Assembly (NCBI RefSeq): GCF_002161805.1
Contig: NZ_NFIP01000003.1
Coordinates: 22,341-46,340 of the forward strand
Origin: Collinsella sp. An307
Lineage (GTDB): Bacteria; Actinomycetota; Coriobacteriia; Coriobacteriales; Coriobacteriaceae
Direction: 5' to 3'
DNA: 24,000 bases
Positions 1 to 17,931 of the stretch are shown one piece after another. The notes below the pieces were generated by a model. It was not told the origin of the DNA and did not search any database. It worked only from the letters and a program-made list of their open reading frames with translations. The position numbers and the translations under genes are program-made. How positions within the stretch are numbered: the first letter of the stretch is position 1; every line of letters starts with the position of its first letter.

Positions 1-108
1 ACGCCGCAGATAAGCCAAGAGCAGTTTGAAGAGACGTTGTTTCTGGACGCGGTACAAGAGGAACTAAAGAAGGTGCCTGAGAAAGTGGACGTAAAGTTGC
101 GGCTTTAG
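1..108 (+). CDS. 3' end of an unidentified gene, truncated by the window edge
   Basis: Frame 1 is open from position 1 (...TPQISQEQFEETLFLDAVQEELKKVPEKVDVKLRL*) and stops at TAG 106-108. Hairpin/T-run terminators follow. No family recognised. Confidence 0.3.
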   Translation, partial: TPQISQEQFEETLFLDAVQEELKKVPEKVDVKLRL

Positions 109-251
109 GCAGAAAAGAAAGGAACTTTAGCCCGATAAAGCATTAATATTGGGCAACCTTTGAGCGGTGAGGTGCCCGCTGTTTTTCGTGGCTATATCGC
201 TGAAAACAATCTGCTTTTCAAGCTGTTTCATGATATATCGGCACATAACAG

Positions 252-290
252 AAACGGGCACCTACCTTAGTGGCGGGTGCCCGTTTTTTC
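252..290 (+). terminator. Rho-independent terminator between convergent genes
   Basis: An 11-bp perfect stem (AAACGGGCACC 252-262 pairs with GGTGCCCGTTT 276-286) with a 13-nt loop, running into a T-run (284-289). Confidence 0.6.
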
Positions 291-308
291 GTTGGTTGAA
301 TACAGCAG

Positions 309-1031
309 CTAGACAGTTTCGGTTCCTTCGGTTCCAACTTCGTCAAAGGAGAACTCAACAGAGTCCGGGCTATCAACCCTCATTACAAAGCAGCCGTTGT
401 CAGCCGAGTTGTTCATATTGAAACCGCCATAATAGGTTTCATAGATTGGTGCGGTTTCAACAACGCCAAATAGCTTTAGTTGCCAACCATCGCTCCAAGC
501 AGAGCCGTTCATATCCACAACGTCTCCGTCGTTGACAATCTGATACTTCTCAAAGTCACCAAAAACAAGGGTTTCGGAAGTTACGTTGTTGCCGCTATCG
601 TCGGTTTCAAGCTCTACCGTTTGAAGCGTTGGGTTCCCTTCGAAGAGGTAGTAGGGGTTGCTATAGTCGTGATATTCCGACTTGTACCTCTCATCCTCTT
701 CGGTGAAAAGCTCGACAATCTCATCATCGGACATTTTGCTAAGCTCACCAAGTTCGGCGGTAACGTTGCTGCGGAACGTCATGATGCCGGATTCGAAGAC
801 ATAGAGTTGAGCCTGTGCATCCTTAGCCACTTTATCCACGACGAAGAACAAACGCCGTCCATCGTCGTTTACGAGTGAGAGCGGAGTGATAACTTCTGAG
901 ACAGCTTGCTCGGAGGCGGGGGAGTCTGACTCTTCGGTGGAGGCATTGTTACATCCGCTCAGACTTGCCGCACCCAACATCCCAATGGAGCAAGCGAGCA
1001 TGAATGTTCGTCTTGATACCGCACTATCCAT
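309..1031 (-). CDS. Putative Tat-signal lipoprotein, function unknown
   Basis: The N-terminus MDSAVSRRTFMLACSIGMLGAASLSGC has a twin-arginine motif (SRRTFM) and a lipobox (LSGC). A GGGAG RBS lies 7 nt upstream. The gene starts 17 nt after the stop of the upstream lipoprotein gene. Confidence 0.75.
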   Translation of the reverse strand: MDSAVSRRTFMLACSIGMLGAASLSGCNNASTEESDSPASEQAVSEVITPLSLVNDDGRRLFFVVDKVAKDAQAQLYVFESGIMTFRSNVTAELGELSKMSDDEIVELFTEEDERYKSEYHDYSNPYYLFEGNPTLQTVELETDDSGNNVTSETLVFGDFEKYQIVNDGDVVDMNGSAWSDGWQLKLFGVVETAPIYETYYGGFNMNNSADNGCFVMRVDSPDSVEFSFDEVGTEGTETV

Positions 1032-1048
1032 CTTAGTCTCCCGTCAAC

Positions 1049-1495
1049 CTACTCAACAATGAAAGCGTCTACGAGATGCGAGATGTTTGGGTCATCCGCA
1101 TACTCAAATGTTCCGCAAACGGTAATCTCCTGCTCTTTCGTCAAGTTAGCAATCTCTTCTTCAGGCAGTTCGACAACGAGGGGGTTGTAATAAACGCCAT
1201 AGCCATACTCACTGACGATAATGTAGTCCGTAGTAATCTCCTCGACGTAACCGGAGACGCGGAATACCTTGCCGTCGTATTCCTGCTTAGTCTTGGCTTC
1301 GTTCTCTTTTCGCATATCGTAGAAAGCATCTCCGTCGAAATCCTCCGCCTGCTCAAGCATTTCTTCTTGCGAAAGCTCTTGGGATTCAGATTCAGCGTTG
1401 TCACCAGTTGAGGAATTACCGCCGCAAGCCGTAAGTCCGAGAGCACCGGTTATTCCAAGAGAGCCTAAGAGAAAGTTCCTGCGGGTTAGGTTCAT
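1049..1495 (-). CDS. Putative Tat-signal lipoprotein, function unknown
   Basis: The N-terminus MNLTRRNFLLGSLGITGALGLTACGG has a TRRNFL twin-arginine motif and an LTAC lipobox. The mature N-terminal region is acidic. A purine-rich RBS is present. Confidence 0.75.
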   Translation of the reverse strand: MNLTRRNFLLGSLGITGALGLTACGGNSSTGDNAESESQELSQEEMLEQAEDFDGDAFYDMRKENEAKTKQEYDGKVFRVSGYVEEITTDYIIVSEYGYGVYYNPLVVELPEEEIANLTKEQEITVCGTFEYADDPNISHLVDAFIVE

Positions 1496-1571
1496 TGTGG
1501 CTCACCCCTTCAAAATGCTATTTCATCAACTCGTTCTTCATATCGAACTCACCTTGCGAAATTCAATCAAC

Positions 1572-2186
1572 TTATCGAATGGTGATGGTGTAAGGATTTC
1601 CCGCAAGAGTCATATCAACCGAAAGCGAACCCTCATTCAAAGCGTTTGAGGGGACGGTTGTGTAAGCATAGATATGTGTGGGGAGATTAGCGTCTAGGTA
1701 GTTGTGATTGATGGACAGCCAAAGTTGATTGGTGATGTATTGGAGTCTCCAGCCTTGATAGGAATCTTCACCATACTTCGCTACCAAATCTGTGATGGCA
1801 TAATCGTCTACTGGTAGCTGATTGGAGTTCAGGGCGGTAACGTCAAACTCAAGTATTACGAAAGCCCCTCCATCTTGCGGTTGCCAATAGGTAGAAGAAG
1901 CGTCTGATTGAAGAACGGAATCAACGCGGGCATTGGTTAGCGTGATACTGAAATCATCATTTGAGATGTTTTGCCCCACGCTGATAGGCTGAGGAGCAGG
2001 CTTCTCCGGTTCTTTTATCTCATCTTCGTCGGTGGTAGTATCCTCGGCTTTCACTTCCTCTGAACCTATTGCCGATGATTCGGTAGATGATTCGTCGCTA
2101 TCGCGATTCACCGATACAGAGCAACCAGCTGCACCAAACGCCAGCATAAAGCACAAGAAGGCGGAAAAAAGTAGCCGTGGTTTCAT
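1572..2186 (-). CDS. Lipoprotein, DUF4352-like (family assigned by recollection)
   Basis: Internal start at MKPRLLFSAFLCFMLAFGAAGC (Sec signal plus lipobox), with a GGAAGGAG RBS just upstream (ATG at 2186-2184). The 42 upstream codons of the tracked ORF (to 2312) look non-coding and overlap the palindrome. The mature part has an acidic linker followed by a beta-rich domain. Confidence 0.7.
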   Translation of the reverse strand: MKPRLLFSAFLCFMLAFGAAGCSVSVNRDSDESSTESSAIGSEEVKAEDTTTDEDEIKEPEKPAPQPISVGQNISNDDFSITLTNARVDSVLQSDASSTYWQPQDGGAFVILEFDVTALNSNQLPVDDYAITDLVAKYGEDSYQGWRLQYITNQLWLSINHNYLDANLPTHIYAYTTVPSNALNEGSLSVDMTLAGNPYTITIR

Positions 2187-2272
2187 AACTTGCTCCTTCC
2201 AAAAGCAGCCCAATAGAGACTGTGGAAGAAGCCCCGCGTGCCAAACAGTGAGGGGGAGTCTCCGCCCACAGT

Positions 2273-2394
2273 TGCCACACTGCCCTTGGTGTTCACGGTG
2301 TACGTGAGTCACGTCAGGGAGGGAGAAGACTCCCCCTGACTAGAGACTCACGAACTGTGTTGTGAACGCCACCCGTTAGGGCAGCAGTGTGGCA
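2273..2394. repeat. 122-nt imperfect palindrome (long interrupted hairpin) in a divergent intergenic region
   Basis: Paired segments checked by hand: 2273-2285/2379-2394 (with a 3-nt bulge), 2291-2296/2362-2367, 2303-2310/2345-2352, 2313-2319/2334-2340. In addition, 2251-2260 (AGGGGGAGTC) is the exact reverse complement of 2328-2337. Confidence 0.6.
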
Positions 2395-2500
2395 CCTCTA
2401 ATTTTAGCAAGACGAGCCATTATCTTCTTTCGCTATCGGTCGGTAGGTTAGGCGAACGTTGCTAAACTAAGTCCAACGGTATTCGGAGATTGGAGCAGCA

Positions 2501-2878
2501 ATGCCAAGGGCTAAGAGTTACGTAACCCCGACCAAAGATAACCTCAAGAAGCTTGAGAATCTTGCTGAGCAGATGGAGGATTTCAAGCTCTACAAAGCGT
2601 TGTGCGGTAAAGACGTAACCGAGCGCAAGAGGTTTGAGATTCTCTGGGATACCTATAAGGGCCTTGCTGAGGGAGATAACACTAAAGTGGCTACAGATGG
2701 GCGCGCGAGCCTTTCGAGCCGCTATAACGAGAACTACAAGCGCTGGAAACAGCTTTCACAGTGGGCGGACACTGACACCGATTCAAAGTACGCCGATTTC
2801 TACGCGCAAGAGCGTCAGATGCTGGAATGGTACGTTACTGAGAGTCTTGTCGATATCTACACGGCGCTTGCTGAGTAG
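2501..2878 (+). CDS. Hypothetical protein (125 aa), no recognised domain
   Basis: ATG preceded by GGAG. The composition is hydrophilic, helical-looking and coding-like. It is the only long ORF here that is not a shadow of another gene. Confidence 0.55.
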   Translation: MPRAKSYVTPTKDNLKKLENLAEQMEDFKLYKALCGKDVTERKRFEILWDTYKGLAEGDNTKVATDGRASLSSRYNENYKRWKQLSQWADTDTDSKYADFYAQERQMLEWYVTESLVDIYTALAE

Positions 2879-2968
2879 AGGAAAGACGTTACGAAACCTT
2901 GTACATCCACCTTGTACACTCATAACTATACCTGTATTCTTGCAGATATATTGCTATCTGAGTATATC

Positions 2969-3057
2969 GAGTGGGAATAGAACAGACGTTCGATAAAACA
3001 ATATAGTATCAGATAGCGGGCACGGTTTCAATCGAATCCGTGCCCGCTGCTGTATGT
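2969..3057. repeat. Repeat copy A: GAAC-N4-GTTC palindrome plus conserved-loop hairpin
   Basis: Gapless 89-nt alignment to 5849-5937, 69/89 identical (hand count). GAACAGACGTTC lies at 2980-2991. The hairpin is GCGGGCACGG 3016-3025 paired with CCGTGCCCGC 3038-3047, with loop TTTCAATCGAAT. Confidence 0.75.
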
Positions 3058-3134
3058 GTGTCCTAGCACGCCCAATATGCGCCGTAAAAGCCGTCCTCTT
3101 CAACGTCAAAGTGAATGCGCTTCATTTTTGCCTC

Positions 3135-3965
3135 TCAAAATCTTATTTTCACGATTTGCATTTTCATCCCGTTGTCACCGACCCTTGCGAGAAACCGGAA
3201 AAAGCCGCTGACAGAAGGGTCCCTCAAATCGTTGTAACCCAGCATATAGCCGCGACTCGTGACCTGCAGACGGCTGTCCCACGTGCCGATTTCCTTGGCG
3301 GCATCCGAAACCGCAAAATATGCCCCCACATCCTTGATTTTTGCAGTCTTAAGCCATGTTTTTGCGATCATCTTTACTGCCGTCCGATTGGCAGCATCAA
3401 AGACCAGCACACCGCCGGGGAAAGCGTCCGCCATCCCCCGCACCAGTTCCCGGACCTGCCGGGTCAGAAAGTAATAGAACACCCCGGAGGCAAAGAACAC
3501 CACCCCGCCGGAGGCATCGATTTTGCTAAACCATGCGGTGTCTTTCAGGTCACAGGGGATATTTTGTTCTCGATTCCCGGCGGGCATTAGCTGCTGCCGC
3601 AAGGCAATCACATCCGGGAAGTCCAGATTGTAGATCTTGCATCTACCGTTGTCGCAGGTTCTGCCGGTGTTGTCCAGCCCACAGCCCAGATTGACCACCG
3701 CTGCATTGGGGTGGCCTTTCAGGTAATCCCGCACCTCGAAAGCAAGATCACTCTGCCGCATGGCCACCTCCAGCGCACCAAAGCGCTGCATCAGGCTGCG
3801 GGAGTTTTTCTCTGCCTCTGAAAAGTCGTAGTCAATCTGGTCGAGCAGACGAACCGCTGTTTCATCCCTGTAAAGGTTCGGGTACAGCTCCGTACACAGC
3901 TTCCGGGAATACAGCGGGAGGATCAGCGTCTCTTGCACGGTGTTTTTCTCAATTTTACATTTCAT
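3135..3965 (-). CDS. Class I SAM-dependent O-methyltransferase, TcmP/LCM-like
   Basis: Start at MKCKIEKNTVQETL, with a GAGGAAG RBS (ATG 3965-3963). The VVNLGCGLD glycine-rich SAM motif is present. Overall resemblance to polyketide-type (tetracenomycin TcmP-like) O-methyltransferases is by recollection. The 65-codon upstream extension in the ORF track was rejected. Confidence 0.85.
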   Translation of the reverse strand: MKCKIEKNTVQETLILPLYSRKLCTELYPNLYRDETAVRLLDQIDYDFSEAEKNSRSLMQRFGALEVAMRQSDLAFEVRDYLKGHPNAAVVNLGCGLDNTGRTCDNGRCKIYNLDFPDVIALRQQLMPAGNREQNIPCDLKDTAWFSKIDASGGVVFFASGVFYYFLTRQVRELVRGMADAFPGGVLVFDAANRTAVKMIAKTWLKTAKIKDVGAYFAVSDAAKEIGTWDSRLQVTSRGYMLGYNDLRDPSVSGFFRFLARVGDNGMKMQIVKIRF

Positions 3966-4081
3966 AGGTTTCTTCCTCAGTGAATAAAAACTGTCATAAT
4001 TGCCGCCAGCACAGCTGCTATGACCGTCATGCCTATCGCCATGTGCAGGATGGATGCAAAAAATGCCCGTGCTTGATGCCC

Positions 4082-4687
4082 TTACTTCCGCGCCGTGACG
4101 CAGAGCCACTTTTTCTTTTTGCGTATCTGCACCTCGTGAAAACCCGCCTGCTCCAGGCACGCCTTCAATTCAATGTCCTTGTAGATGGTCATGCCGCCGA
4201 TGATCCGCGTCCACCTCTCGTCCTTGTCCGTATCGCCATTGCTCTCGTTGCAGATAAGAATTGTCCCGCCTGGCTTCAGCGTCCGCCAGACCTCACGGAA
4301 GCATCGGGGCAAATCAGGCCAGAAATAGACGGTCTCGAAGGCCGTGGCGGCATCGAAGCAGCTATCCTCAAACGCCATATCCGCCACACTGTCTTGCAGA
4401 ACGGCGCAACGCCCCTCCTGAATTGCGGTTCGGTTGAGCTTCCTGGCCTTCTCCACGCTGACGGGCGAATAGTCGACGCCTTTGACGACGCCATGCGGGC
4501 ATTTTTCCAGCAGCCGTTTTATGTTCGCCCCGCCGCCGCAGCCGCAATCCAGCACCTTGGCGTTTGGCGCGAGTCGTAGAAATCGAAGTCCCCACCGCGC
4601 CACAGGGTCGTGGCCCAGGTTCATCATGGCAACCATAAGTTTTCCGCCGAGGCCCACGGGCTTGCGGGTGTTTTCAAAGAACGACAT
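4082..4687 (-). CDS. Class I SAM-dependent methyltransferase (Methyltransf_11/25-like)
   Basis: Start at MSFFENTRKP, with a GGAGG RBS. VLDCGCGGG is SAM-binding motif I. The start overlaps the upstream methyltransferase stop by 14 nt. Confidence 0.85.
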   Translation of the reverse strand: MSFFENTRKPVGLGGKLMVAMMNLGHDPVARWGLRFLRLAPNAKVLDCGCGGGANIKRLLEKCPHGVVKGVDYSPVSVEKARKLNRTAIQEGRCAVLQDSVADMAFEDSCFDAATAFETVYFWPDLPRCFREVWRTLKPGGTILICNESNGDTDKDERWTRIIGGMTIYKDIELKACLEQAGFHEVQIRKKKKWLCVTARK

Positions 4688-5303
4688 CTGGCCCCTCCGA
4701 TTTCGTGCATTCCGCATAGGTCAACGGGAACGAGGCCTTCAGCACCGCGCTTTTCCGCACCGCCCAGCCGTTTTGACGCAGGAAACGCAGGTATTCCTCG
4801 CTTGTCCACCTGCTGTGGAGGGGGAATCCCGCCATGCTCATGAAAAAGGCTTTTGCCTTGCCGGAAATCGAGTTTCCCGCGTGGGTGAAGGTTGGCGCGA
4901 TGAGCACGCCGTCGTCCTTCAGTACCCGCCTGATTTCTTGCAGTGCCTTTTCCGGATGCGGCACTATGTGAAGCGCGTTGGACGCGATCACCACTTCGAA
5001 GGACTTCTGTGCATAGGGCAGGCGGAACATATCTTGTACGGAAAAGTGCAGCTTTGCGGATTGATTGTCCCGCCTTGCTTCAAGGATCATCTTTGCAGAA
5101 GCGTCCGTAGCCTCGATATGCGCCGCCGCATTCACGATGCTCTTTGCGATAAGCCCCGTGCCGGTGGCAACTTCCAGTACGGTTTTTGCTTTCACCACCG
5201 GCCTGATCAGATCATACATCTTCTCATACGCCGCCCGGTCCTTTCGCATGAAGCGGTCGTACCGACCGGCATTCTTGTCCCAGAAGCCCTTGCGTTCGTG
5301 CAT
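4674..5303 (-). CDS. Class I SAM-dependent methyltransferase
   Basis: VLEVATGTG is motif I, and FEVVIASNALH is a post-I/II motif. The likely start is MHERKGFWDK (ATG 5303-5301). The tracked start at 5354 is possible but lacks a better RBS. Confidence 0.8.
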   Translation of the reverse strand: MHERKGFWDKNAGRYDRFMRKDRAAYEKMYDLIRPVVKAKTVLEVATGTGLIAKSIVNAAAHIEATDASAKMILEARRDNQSAKLHFSVQDMFRLPYAQKSFEVVIASNALHIVPHPEKALQEIRRVLKDDGVLIAPTFTHAGNSISGKAKAFFMSMAGFPLHSRWTSEEYLRFLRQNGWAVRKSAVLKASFPLTYAECTKSEGPDVVL

Positions 5304-5848
5304 GGCTATCGCCCCCAAATAGTTAGAGCCATCTAACTGTAACACACGAATCATGCAGTAAGATAAGGCTAACCTTATTTTCTTGGCTAAGACGCATCTC
5401 TTCGGTTTTCGCTTATAACGGCGCGAGTCAGATACTAGGCTGGAGCTGAAGAAGGAGCTTGGCGGACAGGTAGGTCGATACCGGTTCCCGGAACGGTGAT
5501 CCAGCCAATTACACCAGGGCTCTAGTCATGCTTGTAAACCCAATCCATGACGGGAAATAGGTCCTTTTCTCTAGCTCGACGTCTTTCGGAGCTTGACGAT
5601 TTAGACTGATGGAGGCGAGAAGTCCCCCACCGCGCCAATACCAGACGATTGCGCTATAGGCATCTCTCCGACCCTTTGAATCACCCCTTTTCACGCCACC
5701 CGCTACGAACCCCGGCGGAAATCAGGGAGTGATTAAAGGAGCGACCTGCGGTTTCGCGAATCAATTGAGTCATTCCCGAAATCGCGAATCAGCCCTTAGG
5801 CGGTACGACGCGACTCGCATCTGCAGCACCCGTACTGGATCAGTCACT

Positions 5849-5937
5849 GAGTGGGAATAGAACATACGTTCTGTATAACGTTATAGCACCAGGTGGCAGG
5901 CGCAGTTTCAATCGAAGCTACGCCTGCTGCTATATAT
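5849..5937. repeat. Repeat copy B: GAAC-N4-GTTC palindrome plus conserved-loop hairpin
   Basis: GAACATACGTTC lies at 5860-5871. The hairpin is 5896-5905 paired with 5918-5927, with the same loop core GTTTCAATCGAA as copy A. Three stem positions differ from copy A by compensatory double changes. Confidence 0.75.
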
Positions 5938-5954
5938 ACTGGTCGATGGCGGTA

Positions 5955-6374
5955 TCAATGCCCGCGATGCTTCCGCTTGCGCTTCAGCTTTCGCTGCTCG
6001 AAGCGTGCCTCCGCCTCATCCGCGCGACGCTGGCTTCTTGCTTGAGCCGACTCCCGCTTCATCGCTTCCCGCTGTGCCGCGAGAGCCTGCTGTGCCTTGG
6101 TGCTCACTGCGGGCCGCTTAAGGGCCTTCGACGCCTCGCGGGCGCGCCGCTTGGGGTTCTTCGCGGGCTTGCTTGTTTCAGTGGCCTCGTCGCCGAAGAA
6201 CGCGAGCTTCGTCCATTTGTTGACAACGAATCGCAGGATCTCCTCATCGGACGGCTCCGCGCCGAAGACGATGCGGGCGACGCCGCATCTGCCGCCCTCG
6301 ACGTGCTCCGCCAGCCCGACCCAGAATTGGCCGTCGTGATATACGGTCAGGGTGGACGACACGCTGATCTGCAT
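5955..6374 (-). CDS. yjdF: YjdF/DUF2992 family protein
   Basis: Start at MQISVSSTLTVYHDGQFWVGLAEHV, with an AAGGAGG RBS (ATG 6374-6372). The TVYHDGQFWVG N-terminus and the lysine/arginine-rich C-terminal tail are characteristic of the DUF2992 (B. subtilis YjdF) family. Confidence 0.8.
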   Translation of the reverse strand: MQISVSSTLTVYHDGQFWVGLAEHVEGGRCGVARIVFGAEPSDEEILRFVVNKWTKLAFFGDEATETSKPAKNPKRRAREASKALKRPAVSTKAQQALAAQREAMKRESAQARSQRRADEAEARFEQRKLKRKRKHRGH

Positions 6375-6507
6375 GGCTGGTTCCTCCTTTATGTAGATGA
6401 CCATGCAGAGAAGGGACAACCAAGGAGGCAGGTTACTGATGCGGACTCCCGCACGCCCACGACTACCCGACGGGGACTGTGTTTTCATCTTTGGTGCCCG
6501 CATTGTA
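6375..6507 (-). promoter_or_regulatory. Promoter (TACAAT) and structured 5' leader of the yjdF-like gene; candidate yjdF-motif riboswitch
   Basis: On the minus strand there is a TACAAT -10 box (6507-6502). About 120 nt of leader follows. It contains CCUCCUU (6428-6422), which is exactly complementary to the SD AAGGAGG (6389-6383). The yjdF RNA motif is known to precede yjdF genes. I did not verify the consensus. Confidence 0.4.
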
Positions 6508-6606
6508 GCACGCGCGAATGTGCGCCGGCAGCGCTGCTGACATGGCGCGACCGGGACTCGCTTCTCGACGCATTCTTGAACATATTGCCTCCCCGGTTAC
6601 GAAACT

Positions 6607-13007: not shown

Positions 13008-13478
13008 ATGGCCCAGAAGGCCTACAGCCTGTCGCACGCGAAGTGGATGTGCAGGCACCACGTCGTGTTCACGCCGAAGCGTAGGCGCAAAGTCGTCTAC
13101 AACCAAGTGAGGGCCGACCTTGGGGAGATCTTCAGGAAGCTCTGCCGGTACAAGGGGATGGAGATCATCGAGGGGCACCTGATGCCCGACCACGTCCATA
13201 TGCTGCTGGCGATACCGCCGAAGTACAGCGTGTCCAGCGTGATGGGCTGCCTGAAGGGGAAGAGCTCGCTGATGATATTCGACAGGCACGCGAACATGAG
13301 GTACAAGTTCGGCAACAGGAAGTTCTGGGCCGAGGGCTACTACGTGTCCACCGTCGGCCTGAACGAGGCGACGATCGCGAAGTACATCCGGGAGCAGGAG
13401 AAGGCCGACATCGCGCTCGACCGGCTGAGCGTCAAGGAGTACGAGGACCCCTTCGATAGGGGGCCGAAGCGGAAATAG
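13008..13478 (+). CDS. tnpA: IS200/IS605 family Y1 (HUH) transposase TnpA
   Basis: HHVVFTPKRRRKV, the HUH motif in PDHVHMLL, and the catalytic Tyr region EGYYVSTVG match the family. The length (156 aa) is typical. Confidence 0.9.
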   Translation: MAQKAYSLSHAKWMCRHHVVFTPKRRRKVVYNQVRADLGEIFRKLCRYKGMEIIEGHLMPDHVHMLLAIPPKYSVSSVMGCLKGKSSLMIFDRHANMRYKFGNRKFWAEGYYVSTVGLNEATIAKYIREQEKADIALDRLSVKEYEDPFDRGPKRK

Positions 13479-16654: not shown

Positions 16655-16885
16655 TCTCGTTGTGGATTCCTCGCCAAAACCGAGCGTATTAAAGCGCTTG
16701 AGATGTTTTTCAATCTTGGTCATTACAACGGCTGATCTTAGTTTTCAGAAGAGACAACTGCTGGATAACGGATACCCAGAAGTTTTGGCGGCATCCATCC
16801 ATGCCAACATCCCCGAGTTCATGCAGGAGGGGAGGACCTTCTAGGTGAGATGGAGATCGGCTGTTGACGAGCGGCGCAATAGATG

Positions 16886-16917
16886 GCGGTGTCGGTTTCA
16901 GGCGGAACCGGCACCGC
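16886..16917. repeat. Third copy of the yjdF-downstream hairpin
   Basis: A 12-bp stem (GCGGTGTCGGTT/AACCGGCACCGC, with one G-T pair) whose 5' loop junction, GGTTTCA, matches copies A and B. It lies 30 nt from the yjdF remnant stop; copy B lies 27 nt from its yjdF stop. TTTT follows on the + strand. Confidence 0.5.
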
Positions 16918-16946
16918 TTTTGTGTGAGGCTTGCTGCAAATGGCGA

Positions 16947-16985
16947 TCAGTGCCCGCGATGCTTCTGCTTGCGCTCCGGTACCGT
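16947..16985 (-). pseudogene. Last ~10 codons of a second yjdF/DUF2992 gene
   Basis: ...ERKQKHRGH* (stop 16949-16947). The nucleotide string TGCCCGCGATGCTTCTGCTTGCGCT is nearly identical to 5959-5983 at the 3' end of the intact yjdF. The rest of the gene is replaced by the IS256-family end. Confidence 0.55.
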
Positions 16986-17037
16986 CAAGATCCTTGCGCA
17001 CTTTCCGACAGCCTAACTGACCCGCCTTCCGGTACGG

Positions 17038-17931
17038 CTACTCATCCAGCAGAGTCACGTCCAGGTAGCGCCGGGAGCCCCAGGAGCTCTCCGCAACGTA
17101 CTTGAGCCTCGCGGTCACGAGCATGAGGGCCGACCTGCCGTCGGGGAAGGTGCCGACCACGCGCGTGCGTCTGCGAATCTCGCGGTTGAGGCGCTCGATG
17201 GCGTTGTTGGTCCTGATCCTCCGCCAGTGCTCGCGGGGGAACCTGGCGTACGTCAGCGTCTCGGCGCAGCCGTCCCTGACGACCATGGCGGCCTCCCTGA
17301 GCTTGGACTTCTCGAGTTCGGATGCAACCTCGAGGGCCTTGGCCTCGGCGGCCTCGGGCGACTCCATCGCGTGGATCGCCTTCAGCATGGCGGCGACCCT
17401 CGGGCGCCTGGTCTTCGGCACCCTCGCCAGAACGTTTCTGTAGAAGTGGACCGTGCAGCGCTGGTAGGCGGCCTCCGGGAAGACCTCGGCGATCGACCCC
17501 ACCATGCCGGCGGCCTTGTCGCCCGTGAACATGCGAACCCCGCGCAGGCCGCGCGACCTCAGCCGGGAGAGGAACTCCCGCCAGCACTCCGAGGACTCCG
17601 TGAAGCCCTCGGCCGCGCCTATGACCTCGCGGTAGCCGTCGTCGTTGACACCTATCGCCACCATCACGGCCACGTTCTCGTAGGAGCCTCCCCAGCTGCG
17701 CTTGAGGTAGATTCCGTCCACGTAGACGTAGGGGTACGCCCGCTCGAGGGGCCTGTTCCTCCACGCCTCCACGGCCTCGAACGCCCTCTCGTTGAGGTTG
17801 GAGACGGTCGCCGCGGACACCGACGACCCCCACAGGATCTCGCTCACGTCCTCAATCCTGCGCGTCGAGACGCCGGCGAGGTACATCTCTATCATGGCCT
17901 CCTCGACGCTGGTCTCCCGGCGCCGGTAACG
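17038..17931 (-). pseudogene. IS256-family (Mutator-type) transposase, C-terminal ~3/4, disrupted
   Basis: ...YRRRETSVEEAMIEMYLAGVSTRRIEDV...YVYVDGIYLKRSWGG...VAIGVNDDGYREVIG...CTVHFYRNVL...TNNAIERLNREIRRRTRVVGTFPD are hallmark IS256 transposase blocks. The frame is contiguous with 19879-20151 once the IS21 element is removed. Confidence 0.85.

What the first reader, a model, noticed from the sequence alone, without database searches (positions are those of the whole stretch)
2969..5937. Diverged 89-bp direct repeats bracketing the methyltransferase cassette, each with an SOS-box-like palindrome and a covarying hairpin with a conserved loop
Seen in the sequence:
- 2969-3057 and 5849-5937 align without gaps at 69/89 positions (hand count).
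- Both copies start with an almost identical GAGTGGGAATAGAACA(G/T)ACGTTC. This contains GAAC-N4-GTTC, the Gram-positive LexA (Cheo/SOS) box core.
- Both copies contain a 10-bp hairpin whose loop core GTTTCAATCGAA is conserved, while the stem differs by three compensatory double substitutions: G-C to A-T, A-T to G-C, and G-C to A-T.
- Covariation with a conserved loop argues for selection on a structure, either RNA or a DNA hairpin, rather than a simple duplication.
- Neither hairpin has a convincing T-run on either strand.
- The two copies exactly flank the compositionally distinct three-methyltransferase block plus its ~490-nt upstream non-coding stretch.

Inference: several readings are possible. 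One is an SOS-controlled small transcript. Another is a protein-recognised hairpin, such as a recombination or mobilisation site that delimits the cassette. A third is simply a conserved 3' element of yjdF-type genes.
Basis: partly seen in the sequence, partly recalled or inferred. Interest (0 to 1): 0.62.

Follow-up and report, generated by a model that had tools for sequence, protein, structure and literature searches.

The report
guaA integration-site repeats flanking mobile cassette
The two 89-bp repeats are the junction sites of a small integrase-less methyltransferase cassette that inserted at the 3' end of the GMP synthase gene (guaA) in a gut Collinsella-type bacterium; this is a known kind of mobile-DNA hotspot, not a new RNA or recombination system.

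Summary
The two copies match at 69/89 positions without gaps, the stem shows three compensatory changes, and there is no T-run.

The key fact was missed. Each repeat starts with GAG TGG GAA TAG, the last four codons of guaA. This contains the GAGTGGGA integration site published for the guaA island GIsul2.

The 2.9-kb methyltransferase block is a discrete mobile cassette with no integrase of its own.
- It occurs at 96-98% identity in several genera.
- It always starts at this core.
- In 22 of 33 loci it ends at a second core, followed by at least eight different right flanks.
- One genome shows the empty site: guaA, core, copy-2 arm, yjdF.

The remaining ~77 nt of each repeat are two diverged versions of one module. 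It is found only beside this core across Coriobacteriia. It consists of a LexA-type box, exactly 10 nt, a -10 hexamer, exactly 7 nt, then a covarying 14-bp hairpin. Its likely original role is the SOS promoter and 5' stem-loop of a gyrI/sbmC-like gene downstream of guaA.

In this window an integrase-bearing island sits between guaA and copy 1, so the cassettes are stacked by accretion.

Verdict: a new member of a known kind, of moderate interest.

The parts
1..2968 (+). Right part of 'island A'. This is a ~7-kb integrative element (genome C11:18300-25308) inserted between guaA and repeat copy 1. Its tyrosine integrase and resolvase lie upstream of the window.
   Evidence: guaA ends at C11:18299 with ATCGAGTGGGAGTAG, and a 408-aa Phage_integrase ORF starts 143 nt later. 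The island ends at ATCGAGTGGGAATAG, window 2966-2980.
2899..2918 (+). Two TTGTACA repeats near the right end of island A. These are candidate arm-type integrase sites.
   Evidence: Positions. The same TTGTACA / TACAAG motifs occur just before the integrase gene at the island's left end.
2969..2980 (+). att core, copy 1: GAGTGGGAATAG, the last four codons of guaA (E-W-E-stop).
   Evidence: It contains the GAGTGGGA integration site reported for GIsul2 (PMC9376610).
2969..3057 (+). Repeat copy 1: the core plus the 'type A arm'. It forms the left end of the methyltransferase cassette.
   Evidence: It is 93-99% identical in more than 40 genomes and always sits at the left edge of the cassette.
2980..2991 (.). 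LexA-type (Cheo) box GAACAGACGTTC. It shares one base (G2980) with the core.
   Evidence: It is conserved in all arm types.
3002..3007 (+). -10-like hexamer TATAGT. It lies exactly 10 nt after the box and 7 nt before the hairpin.
   Evidence: The spacing is the same in all arm types.
3015..3048 (+). Hairpin, copy 1: an 11-bp stem, a T.T mismatch, a TTC/GAA extension and a 4-nt loop.
3063..3125 (-). 20-codon ORF (MKRIHFDVEEDGFYGAYWAC) with a Shine-Dalgarno sequence. It is the last gene of the cassette operon.
3135..5354 (-). Three SAM-dependent methyltransferase genes: an LCM-like gene at 3135-3965, and Methyltransf_11/25 genes at 4082-4717 and 4674-5354.
5355..5848 (.). Non-coding right arm of the cassette. 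It contains two CGCGAATCA direct repeats (5755-5763 and 5783-5791) and ends in ...ACTGGATCAGTCACT.
   Evidence: No Rfam match. The middle part differs among cassette copies, while the last ~100 nt are kept at about 80%.
5849..5860 (+). att core, copy 2 (GAGTGGGAATAG).
5849..5937 (+). Repeat copy 2: the core plus the 'type B arm'. This is the resident site's version, which continues into yjdF.
   Evidence: The unit 5849-6519 is 92-94% identical in G333 and G218.
5860..5871 (.). LexA-type box GAACATACGTTC.
5895..5928 (+). Hairpin, copy 2. It has one C.A mismatch that most other type B copies lack.
5955..6380 (-). yjdF (DUF2992) gene.
6396..6498 (-). yjdF (azaaromatic) riboswitch.
16868..16975 (+). 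Degenerate third copy. It has a core-like GAGCGGCGCAATAG, a hairpin at 16885-16918 and a 30-nt remnant of the yjdF 3' end. It is cut off by a truncated IS256-family (Transposase_mut) gene.
   Evidence: (repeat family D4).

Best explanation
The repeats are att-type junction repeats made by site-specific integration into the 3' end of guaA.

Shown:
- Each repeat begins with the last four codons of guaA.
- The methyltransferase block, with its 490-nt right arm, is a discrete cassette bounded by this core. It has no integrase and occurs in many Coriobacteriia genomes.
- It lies directly after an intact guaA in 15 of 33 loci.
- Its right flank varies between genomes.
- In this genome an integrase-bearing island lies between guaA and copy 1.

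Inferred:
- A tyrosine integrase supplied in trans recombined the core of a circular cassette (right arm, core, type A arm) with the core of the resident site (guaA, core, type B arm, yjdF).
- Only the core is the crossover site. The similarity extends to 89 bp because the cassette's left arm and the resident flank are two diverged copies (78% identical) of one ancestral guaA-downstream module.

That module, in order:
- a LexA operator abutting the guaA stop codon and lying over the -35 position;
- 10 nt;
- a -10 hexamer (TGnTATAAT in the best-kept versions);
- 7 nt, which puts the transcript start at the foot of the hairpin;
- a 14-bp GC-rich hairpin.

Inferred function:
- In its native setting the module is the SOS-controlled promoter and 5'-terminal stabilising stem-loop of a gyrI/sbmC-like gene.
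- In the two copies here it faces convergent operons. The promoter part is probably a relic.
- The hairpin is still under selection and most likely acts as a transcription barrier between convergent units.
For: Core and guaA:
- The core equals the end of guaA.
- The same GAGTGGGA integration site is published for GIsul2, whose integrase also mobilises an integrase-less unit in trans (PMC9376610).
- guaA 3'-end targeting and accretion of integrase-less elements (CIMEs) are reviewed in PMC5704250.

Cassette as a discrete unit:
- It is 96-98% identical in three genera, and homology starts at 2966/2969.
- 22 of 33 loci have a second core 2559-3144 bp downstream, followed by at least 8 unrelated flanks. 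15 of 33 lie directly after guaA.
- G010 and G137 have only the 12-bp core repeated.
- Empty site: G333 has guaA, core, B arm, yjdF.
- The cassette has no integrase.
- G137 has only two tyrosine recombinases in its whole genome, neither near the cassette.

Island A:
- It carries an integrase and has 15-bp core repeats at both ends.

The arm module:
- It occurs only beside the core.
- It was found in 90 of 401 class genomes, in Collinsella, Atopobium, Raoultibacter, Ellagibacter and Eggerthella records.
- Hairpin: 9 of 14 pairs change on both sides and 97.7% of cells are paired.
- Two full compensatory changes occur within the recent type A copies.

LexA link:
- The genome encodes LexA.
- Its lexA and recA promoters carry GAAC-N4-GTTC.
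- The box-to--10 segment of the C' arm aligns with the promoter of a second gyrI-like paralogue that has a perfect CGAACAGCTGTTCG.
- The order guaA, box, hairpin, gyrI-like gene recurs in another family.
- G000's own gyrI-like gene (C17:6934) has a box at C17:6882.
- E. coli gyrI/sbmC is SOS-induced (PMC10886550).

Spacing and constraint:
- The 10-nt and 7-nt spacers are fixed in length in all types, although the 7-nt gap is the most variable part in sequence.
- In type A the box and -10 are more variable than the stem and loop.
Against: - No excision product, circular junction or integrase activity was observed.
- The cognate integrase of the cassette is unknown. Island A's integrase has only one close homologue, 53% identical, in the 200 family genomes searched.
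- How the cassette acquired a copy of the guaA-downstream module as its left arm is not shown.
The promoter, the transcript start and LexA binding are therefore inferred from sequence alone.
- GAAC-N4-GTTC occurs 29 times in the genome. By my own calculation about 25 are expected by chance, so the core motif is not significant on its own.
- The hairpin has no U-run, so a terminator role is not canonical.
- The bias toward G.U over A.C intermediates on the + strand is weak: 10-12 against 4, p about 0.09.
- The covariation rests on about six independent arm lineages, and the rows were chosen by me.
Confidence: 0.75

Rival explanations
1. The hairpin is simply a (bidirectional) transcription terminator. 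It would end guaA on the + strand, and yjdF or the methyltransferase operon on the - strand. The box and the -10 would then be incidental.
For: - The hairpin lies 35 nt after the guaA stop in native settings.
- It lies 14 nt after the 20-codon ORF and 27 nt after the yjdF stop on the - strand.
- Degenerate hairpins accompany yjdF 3' ends without any core.
- In type A the hairpin stays conserved while the promoter part drifts.
Against: - There is no U-run on either strand.
- In C' arms a co-directional gene follows, and a conserved TGnTATAAT lies upstream of the hairpin. A strong terminator there would block that gene.
- A terminator does not explain the fixed 10-nt and 7-nt spacings.
Confidence: 0.3
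2. Both copies are active SOS-induced promoters. They would produce a small or antisense RNA that starts with the hairpin and represses the convergent methyltransferase and yjdF operons after DNA damage.
For: - Both copies have an intact GAAC-N4-GTTC box.
- The organism's LexA regulon uses this motif.
- A -10-like hexamer sits at the conserved distance.
Against: - Copy 2's -10 is TATAGC.
- Type A copies carry variants that destroy the -10 (TTTAGT, TGTAGT, TATACT) and variants that break the box.
- There is no terminator for a short RNA and no Rfam family match.
Confidence: 0.15
3. The hairpin arm is itself a structure-specific recombination site, like an integron attC site or an IS200/IS605 subterminal hairpin. 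On this view it defines cassette ends.
For: - The structure is conserved with variable sequence.
- The arm lies at cassette boundaries and at a fixed distance from the core.
- The cassettes lack an integrase.
Against: - Many core-bounded cassettes have no such arm at either end. The same methyltransferase cassette usually has none on its right side.
- The homology break-points fall at the core.
- No integron integrase was found nearby, and no R''/R' boxes were seen in the arm sequence read by eye. Tyrosine recombinases in five array-bearing genomes all lie away from the guaA arrays.
- The central part of the hairpin is inverted in two genomes without loss of the arm.
Confidence: 0.06

Closest known systems
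GIsul2 and its CR2-sul2 unit (Gammaproteobacteria), from PMC9376610
   Same: - Integration into the 3' end of guaA at a site containing GAGTGGGA.
- Three att sites in tandem.
- An integrase-less unit bounded by att sites that is moved in trans by the island's tyrosine integrase.
   Different: - The host phylum is different.
- Island A's integrase gave no close match to plasmid-borne integrases. The best hits were about 25-27% identical and from Firmicutes records.
- The cargo here is three methyltransferases, not sul2.
- No mobility experiment exists for this cassette.
CIMEs and site-specific accretion (ICESt1/ICESt3 of Streptococcus thermophilus), reviewed in PMC5704250
   Same: - Elements that keep attL and attR but lack integration and transfer genes.
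- They are stacked in tandem with integrase-bearing elements at the 3' end of a housekeeping gene.
   Different: - The target gene differs. The review lists guaA as a target only for ATE-1, the Brucella IncP island and GIsul2.
- It is not shown that this cassette arose by decay of an ICE or IME. It may instead be captured host DNA.
E. coli sbmC/gyrI SOS promoter (PMC10886550) and Gram-positive Cheo-box LexA operators
   Same: A GyrI-like gene preceded by a LexA operator. The motif GAAC-N4-GTTC is the one found at the lexA and recA promoters of this genome.
   Different: - Here the operator abuts the guaA stop codon and therefore the att core.
- A hairpin follows the -10.
- In the two copies under study the gyrI-like gene is no longer downstream.
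Integron attC sites
   Same: Imperfect palindromes at cassette boundaries with conserved structure, variable sequence and integrase-less cassettes.
   Different: - No integron integrase was found.
- No R/L box organisation was recognised in the arm sequence read by eye.
- The arm is absent from many cassette boundaries.
- The repeated unit common to all boundaries is the 12-bp guaA core.

Membership tests
Integrative element at the guaA 3' end (tyrosine-integrase type, as for GIsul2) | Direct repeats of the guaA 3'-terminal core at both ends of the element | tested here: met
   GAGTGGGAATAG lies at 2969 and 5849. The same is seen in G010, G137 and 22 of 33 loci.
Integrative element at the guaA 3' end (tyrosine-integrase type, as for GIsul2) | The element lies directly after an intact guaA in some genomes, and an empty site exists | tested here: met
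   15 of 33 loci follow guaA directly. The empty site is G333: guaA, core, B arm, yjdF.
Integrative element at the guaA 3' end (tyrosine-integrase type, as for GIsul2) | The element encodes its own integrase | tested here: not met
   The cassette holds only three methyltransferase genes and a 20-codon ORF. Island A, next to it, does encode an integrase.
Integrative element at the guaA 3' end (tyrosine-integrase type, as for GIsul2) | Integrase-dependent excision and integration demonstrated | not testable with these tools
   This needs PCR for the circular junction or a two-plasmid assay.
CIME (cis-mobilizable element) in an accretion array | Retains att sites at both ends but lacks integration and transfer genes | tested here: met
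CIME (cis-mobilizable element) in an accretion array | Lies in tandem with an integrase-bearing element that uses the same att site | tested here: met
   Island A (integrase at C11:18442-19665) shares the core at 2966-2980 with the cassette.
CIME (cis-mobilizable element) in an accretion array | Derived by decay of an ICE or IME | tested here: inconclusive
   No remnant of integrase or transfer genes was recognised in 5355-5848. There was no Rfam match and no convincing ORF. The left arm looks like captured host intergenic DNA.
LexA (Cheo-type) operator | GAAC-N4-GTTC palindrome, in a genome that encodes LexA and has the same motif at lexA and recA | tested here: met
LexA (Cheo-type) operator | Overlaps a functional promoter and is bound by LexA | not testable with these tools
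   Sequence geometry and homology to a gyrI-like promoter support this.
Integron attC site | Adjacent integron integrase with attI, and an attC at the end of every cassette | tested here: not met
   No tyrosine recombinase lies near the arrays in five genomes. Many cassette boundaries lack the arm.
Intrinsic (Rho-independent) terminator | GC-rich stem-loop followed by a U-run | tested here: not met
   The stem is present. The terminator scan did not pick up either copy, and no T-run follows on either strand.
Any Rfam RNA family | Covariance-model match | tested here: not met
   Only the yjdF riboswitch at 6396-6498 matched. Nothing matched in 2850-6000 at E<=1.

The most novel reading that the evidence does not exclude
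The LexA operator shares a base with the att core at the guaA hotspot. LexA occupancy might therefore gate integration and excision of a whole family of integrase-less cassettes. The guaA locus of Coriobacteriia would then be an SOS-licensed cassette-exchange platform, functionally like an integron but built on a lambda-type att core. The conserved hairpin would be part of the recombination architecture.
Probability: 0.08. Interest if true: 0.7.

Novelty: new member of a known kind. Interest (0 to 1): 0.35.

Why it matters
It turns an apparent structured-RNA or recombination-hairpin candidate into an explained feature: att junctions at the guaA 3' end.

It also shows that this hotspot carries stacks of small, integrase-less accessory cassettes in gut Coriobacteriia (Collinsella and relatives). 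Cargo seen in passing includes methyltransferases, ABC-F and MFS proteins, an Abi protein and yjdF.

This is useful for annotating mobile DNA and for tracing horizontal transfer in gut Actinomycetota.

A by-product is a candidate SOS-regulated gyrI/sbmC-like gene next to guaA, with an unusual 5' hairpin. That is a simple, testable regulatory unit.

Tried and rejected
- Rfam, at gathering threshold and at E<=1: nothing matched in the repeats or in the 490-nt arm.
- Outer helix TATAGY/GCTRTA around the main stem: no covariation, and one pair is unpaired in half the sequences. Rejected.
- Strand of folding judged from G.U against A.C intermediates: 10-12 against 4, p about 0.09. Not decisive.
- Search for further copies of the module elsewhere in the genomes with covariance model R1: found only at guaA-core sites.
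- Cognate integrase:
  - Tyrosine recombinases in five array-bearing genomes are all far from the arrays.
  - Homologues of island A's integrase are rare, and only G445's lies at guaA.
  - ORFs upstream of a related right end gave no Pfam hits.
- Right boundary of the whole inserted region in this genome: none found. The first gene shared with relatives G004 and G007 is at C11:53072, but no core or matching flank precedes it.
- Cassette on plasmids or phages: no match.
- IS200/IS605-type hairpin ends: considered because a Y1 transposase gene is in the window (13008-13478). Rejected because all boundaries fall at the guaA core.
Full report
**1. The observation**

The two stretches 2969-3057 and 5849-5937 match at 69 of 89 positions without gaps (repeat finder family D1). 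Within the organism's 2.2-Mb genome they are the only two full copies. This holds for BLAST (E=3.5e-14) and for a covariance model of the hairpin part.

Both copies carry GAAC-N4-GTTC, at 2980-2991 and 5860-5871. Both carry a GC-rich hairpin, at 3015-3048 and 5895-5928. The two hairpins differ by three double compensatory substitutions. Copy 2 has one additional C.A mismatch.

The 'conserved loop' is better described as a T.T mismatch, a TTC/GAA 3-bp stem extension and a 4-nt loop. Neither strand shows a canonical terminator tail. A degenerate third copy lies at about 16868-16975.

**2. What the repeats start with**

Relatives that share the methyltransferase block lose homology with the window exactly at 2966/2969. 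In G023 and G010 the sequence to the left reads ...AAGCCGCCCGCGAC(G/C)ATC GAG TGG GAA TAG. That is the C-terminus (KPPATIEWE-stop) of GMP synthase. So the first 12 nt of each repeat are the last four codons of guaA.

In the window's own genome, guaA ends at C11:18299 with ATCGAGTGGGAGTAG. This is 7 kb upstream of copy 1. A 408-aa tyrosine integrase gene starts 143 nt after it, followed by a resolvase gene. This 'island A' ends at ATCGAGTGGGAATAG, which is the start of copy 1. TTGTACA repeats occur near both of its ends.

The literature gives 5'-GAGTGGGA-3' at the 3' end of guaA as the integration site of the genomic island GIsul2. Its integrase also mobilises an integrase-less unit bounded by att sites (PMC9376610). 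guaA 3'-end targeting (ATE-1, a Brucella island, GIsul2) and accretion of integrase-less CIMEs are reviewed in PMC5704250.

**3. The cassette is a discrete, core-bounded mobile unit**

The block from 2969 to 5860 contains:
- the type A arm;
- a 20-codon ORF;
- three SAM-methyltransferase genes;
- a 490-nt non-coding right arm;
- the second core.

It occurs at 96-98% identity in three genera of the family. The A arm is found in dozens of genomes.

Among 33 distinct loci with enough downstream sequence:
- 15 lie directly after guaA;
- 18 lie after the right ends of other elements;
- 22 have a second core 2559-3144 bp downstream;
- at least eight unrelated sequences follow that second core.

Only three loci (the window, G023 and one Collinsella MAG) have the type B arm on the right. 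Elsewhere only the 12-bp core is repeated. In G010 a canonical terminator follows the right core. G137 is another such case.

G333 shows the empty site. There guaA and the core are followed at once by the B arm, yjdF and its riboswitch, 94% identical to window 5849-6519.

The cassette has no recombinase. G137 carries it yet has only two tyrosine recombinases in its genome, both far away. Other core-bounded segments at this locus also lack integrases. Their cargo includes ABC-F and MFS proteins, yjdF with an Abi_2 protein, and a GyrI-like protein with an AAA_14 ATPase.

Compared with relatives of the same genus (G004, G007), the first shared gene downstream of guaA is at C11:53072. The whole window therefore lies inside a roughly 35-kb stack of inserted DNA.

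**4. Why the similarity runs for 89 bp**

The ~77 nt after the core exist in at least five sequence types:
- A, with the methyltransferase cassette;
- B and D, with yjdF 3' ends;
- C and C', followed by a co-directional GyrI-like gene.

All types align without gaps. All share the same plan: box GAAC-N4-GTTC, exactly 10 nt, a -10-like hexamer (TATAAT preceded by TGn in C'), exactly 7 nt, the hairpin, then GCTRTAT.

The covariance model finds the module only beside the guaA core. A BLAST survey found it in 90 of 401 genomes of the class. A pattern scan found it in records named Collinsella aerofaciens, C. stercoris, Atopobium, Raoultibacter, Ellagibacter and Eggerthella.

Copy 1 and copy 2 are thus two diverged homologues of one module. 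One was brought in as the cassette's left arm. The other belongs to the resident site. Integration itself duplicates only the core.

**5. The hairpin**

On 22 chosen variants, 9 of the 14 main-stem pairs show changes on both sides and 97.7% of cells are paired. Versions of the structure slid by 1-3 columns pair at only 28-44%. Two complete compensatory changes, with their G.U intermediates, occur within the recent type A population.

An outer helix (TATAGY/GCTRTA) is not supported. The central part of the hairpin is inverted in two genomes. The preference for G.U over A.C intermediates on the + strand is weak (p about 0.09).

Caveats: the variants represent about six independent lineages, and I selected the rows.

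**6. The box**

The genome encodes LexA. Its lexA promoter carries AGAACGAGTGTTCG and CGAACAGCTGTTCC. Its recA promoter carries CGAACAACCGTTCG between the -35 and the -10. The motif class is therefore right for this organism.

The bare 12-mer is not rare. It occurs 29 times in the genome, against about 25 expected from base composition by my own calculation.

The decisive evidence is comparative:
- A second GyrI-like paralogue elsewhere in Collinsella genomes is preceded by TTCGAACAGCTGTTCGTTTCTATGATATGAT.
- This aligns base for base with the C' arm, ATAGAACAGACGTTCGATTCTGTGTTATAAT. Both have the box, 10 nt ending in TGn, then the -10.
- In another family (locus L248) guaA is followed by box, TATAAT, a covarying hairpin and the GyrI-like gene.
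- The window genome's own GyrI-like gene at C17:6934 has a box at C17:6882.
- E. coli gyrI/sbmC is SOS-induced (PMC10886550).

I infer that the module is, in origin, the SOS promoter of a gyrI-like gene lying next to guaA. The invariant 7-nt gap is the most variable stretch in sequence. It would place the transcript start at the foot of the hairpin. That geometry fits a 5'-terminal stabilising stem-loop, a role known from established work on ompA and on Bacillus mRNAs. This link rests on my own knowledge and was not tested here.

Among C/C' arms the box, spacer and -10 are the conserved parts. Among type A arms they are more variable than the stem and loop. Copy 2 has TATAGC as its -10. For the two copies in the window, the promoter is therefore probably a relic. 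The hairpin is still maintained and now sits 14 nt and 27 nt beyond the stops of convergent operons. A role as a barrier between convergent transcription units is my best guess. It lacks a U-run.

**7. What could not be done**

- The integrase that moves the cassette was not identified.
- The cassette is not on known plasmids or phages.
- How it acquired a copy of the guaA-downstream module is open. Capture of host DNA by recombination between two cores is plausible.

**8. Verdict**

The repeats are real and the hairpin covaries. The explanation, however, is a known kind of event: site-specific integration and accretion at the guaA 3' end. The extended similarity comes from two homologous copies of the ancestral guaA-downstream SOS promoter and hairpin module.

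This is a new member of a known kind, in a new host group, with integrase-less cargo cassettes. Interest is moderate to low (0.35).

The most novel reading not excluded is that LexA bound next to the core gates recombination. That would make the locus an SOS-licensed cassette platform (probability about 0.08).

Noticed in passing
outside the window: G000 C11:67308-67589 (L095 about 5300-5590): There is a second guaA-like gene in the same contig. It matches GMP_synt_C, has a 342-aa open frame and ends with the identical core GAGTGGGAGTAG. It lies about 49 kb downstream of guaA in the same orientation. It could be a second integration target or a copy carried by an element.
   Followed up: no
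window 3063-3125 (-): A 20-codon ORF (MKRIHFDVEEDGFYGAYWAC) with a Shine-Dalgarno sequence sits 9 nt after the last methyltransferase gene and is kept in all cassette copies. A small peptide next to three methyltransferases could be a modified-peptide precursor.
   Followed up: no
window 16868-17895: A degenerate third copy of the module is present here. It has a core-like GAGCGGCGCAATAG and a perfect 15-bp hairpin, joined to a 30-nt remnant of the yjdF 3' end. It is cut off by a 5'-truncated IS256-family (Transposase_mut) gene.
   Followed up: partly
L131 and L153 (Collinsella records): The central part of the hairpin (CCTCTTCCGAAG) is present as its exact reverse complement (CTTCGGAAGAGG) between unchanged stems. 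This is a flip inversion of the kind seen at other long hairpins.
   Followed up: no
L008 4383-4446 (G023): Copy 2 of this relative is truncated inside the loop (…GTTTCAAT | GGTAGATTC…) and is followed by unrelated GC-rich coding DNA. A rearrangement break-point therefore lies in the hairpin loop.
   Followed up: no
many loci, 30-70 nt left of the core (for example L025, L041, L060, L092): One family of right ends recurs on cassettes with quite different cargo: GCACGCGTTCC…GAAAACTGGGTGTAACTGGAGTGACGGGACGGCAGAACCGACGCCATC. It contains direct AACTGG repeats, which are candidate arm-type integrase sites.
   Followed up: partly
L098 about 250-500 (G004, same genus): Downstream of guaA lies the N-terminal remnant of an integrase like island A's, interrupted by stop codons. 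The hotspot therefore also holds decayed elements in relatives.
   Followed up: no
outside the window: G000 C17:6882-7494: The genome's own GyrI-like gene has a CGAACGTATGTTCC box about 40 nt upstream. This is consistent with SOS control of this gene family in Coriobacteriia.
   Followed up: partly
L092 (G365 C2:158500-178400): The guaA array of this genome has four cores. They delimit segments that carry an ABC-F ATPase with an MFS transporter (possibly resistance genes), a two-component system with an ABC transporter and yjdF, and a MerR-type unit. None of the segments has an integrase.
   Followed up: partly
window 13008-13478 (+): An IS200-like Y1 transposase gene lies inside the stack of inserted DNA. 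It is unrelated to the repeats.
   Followed up: no
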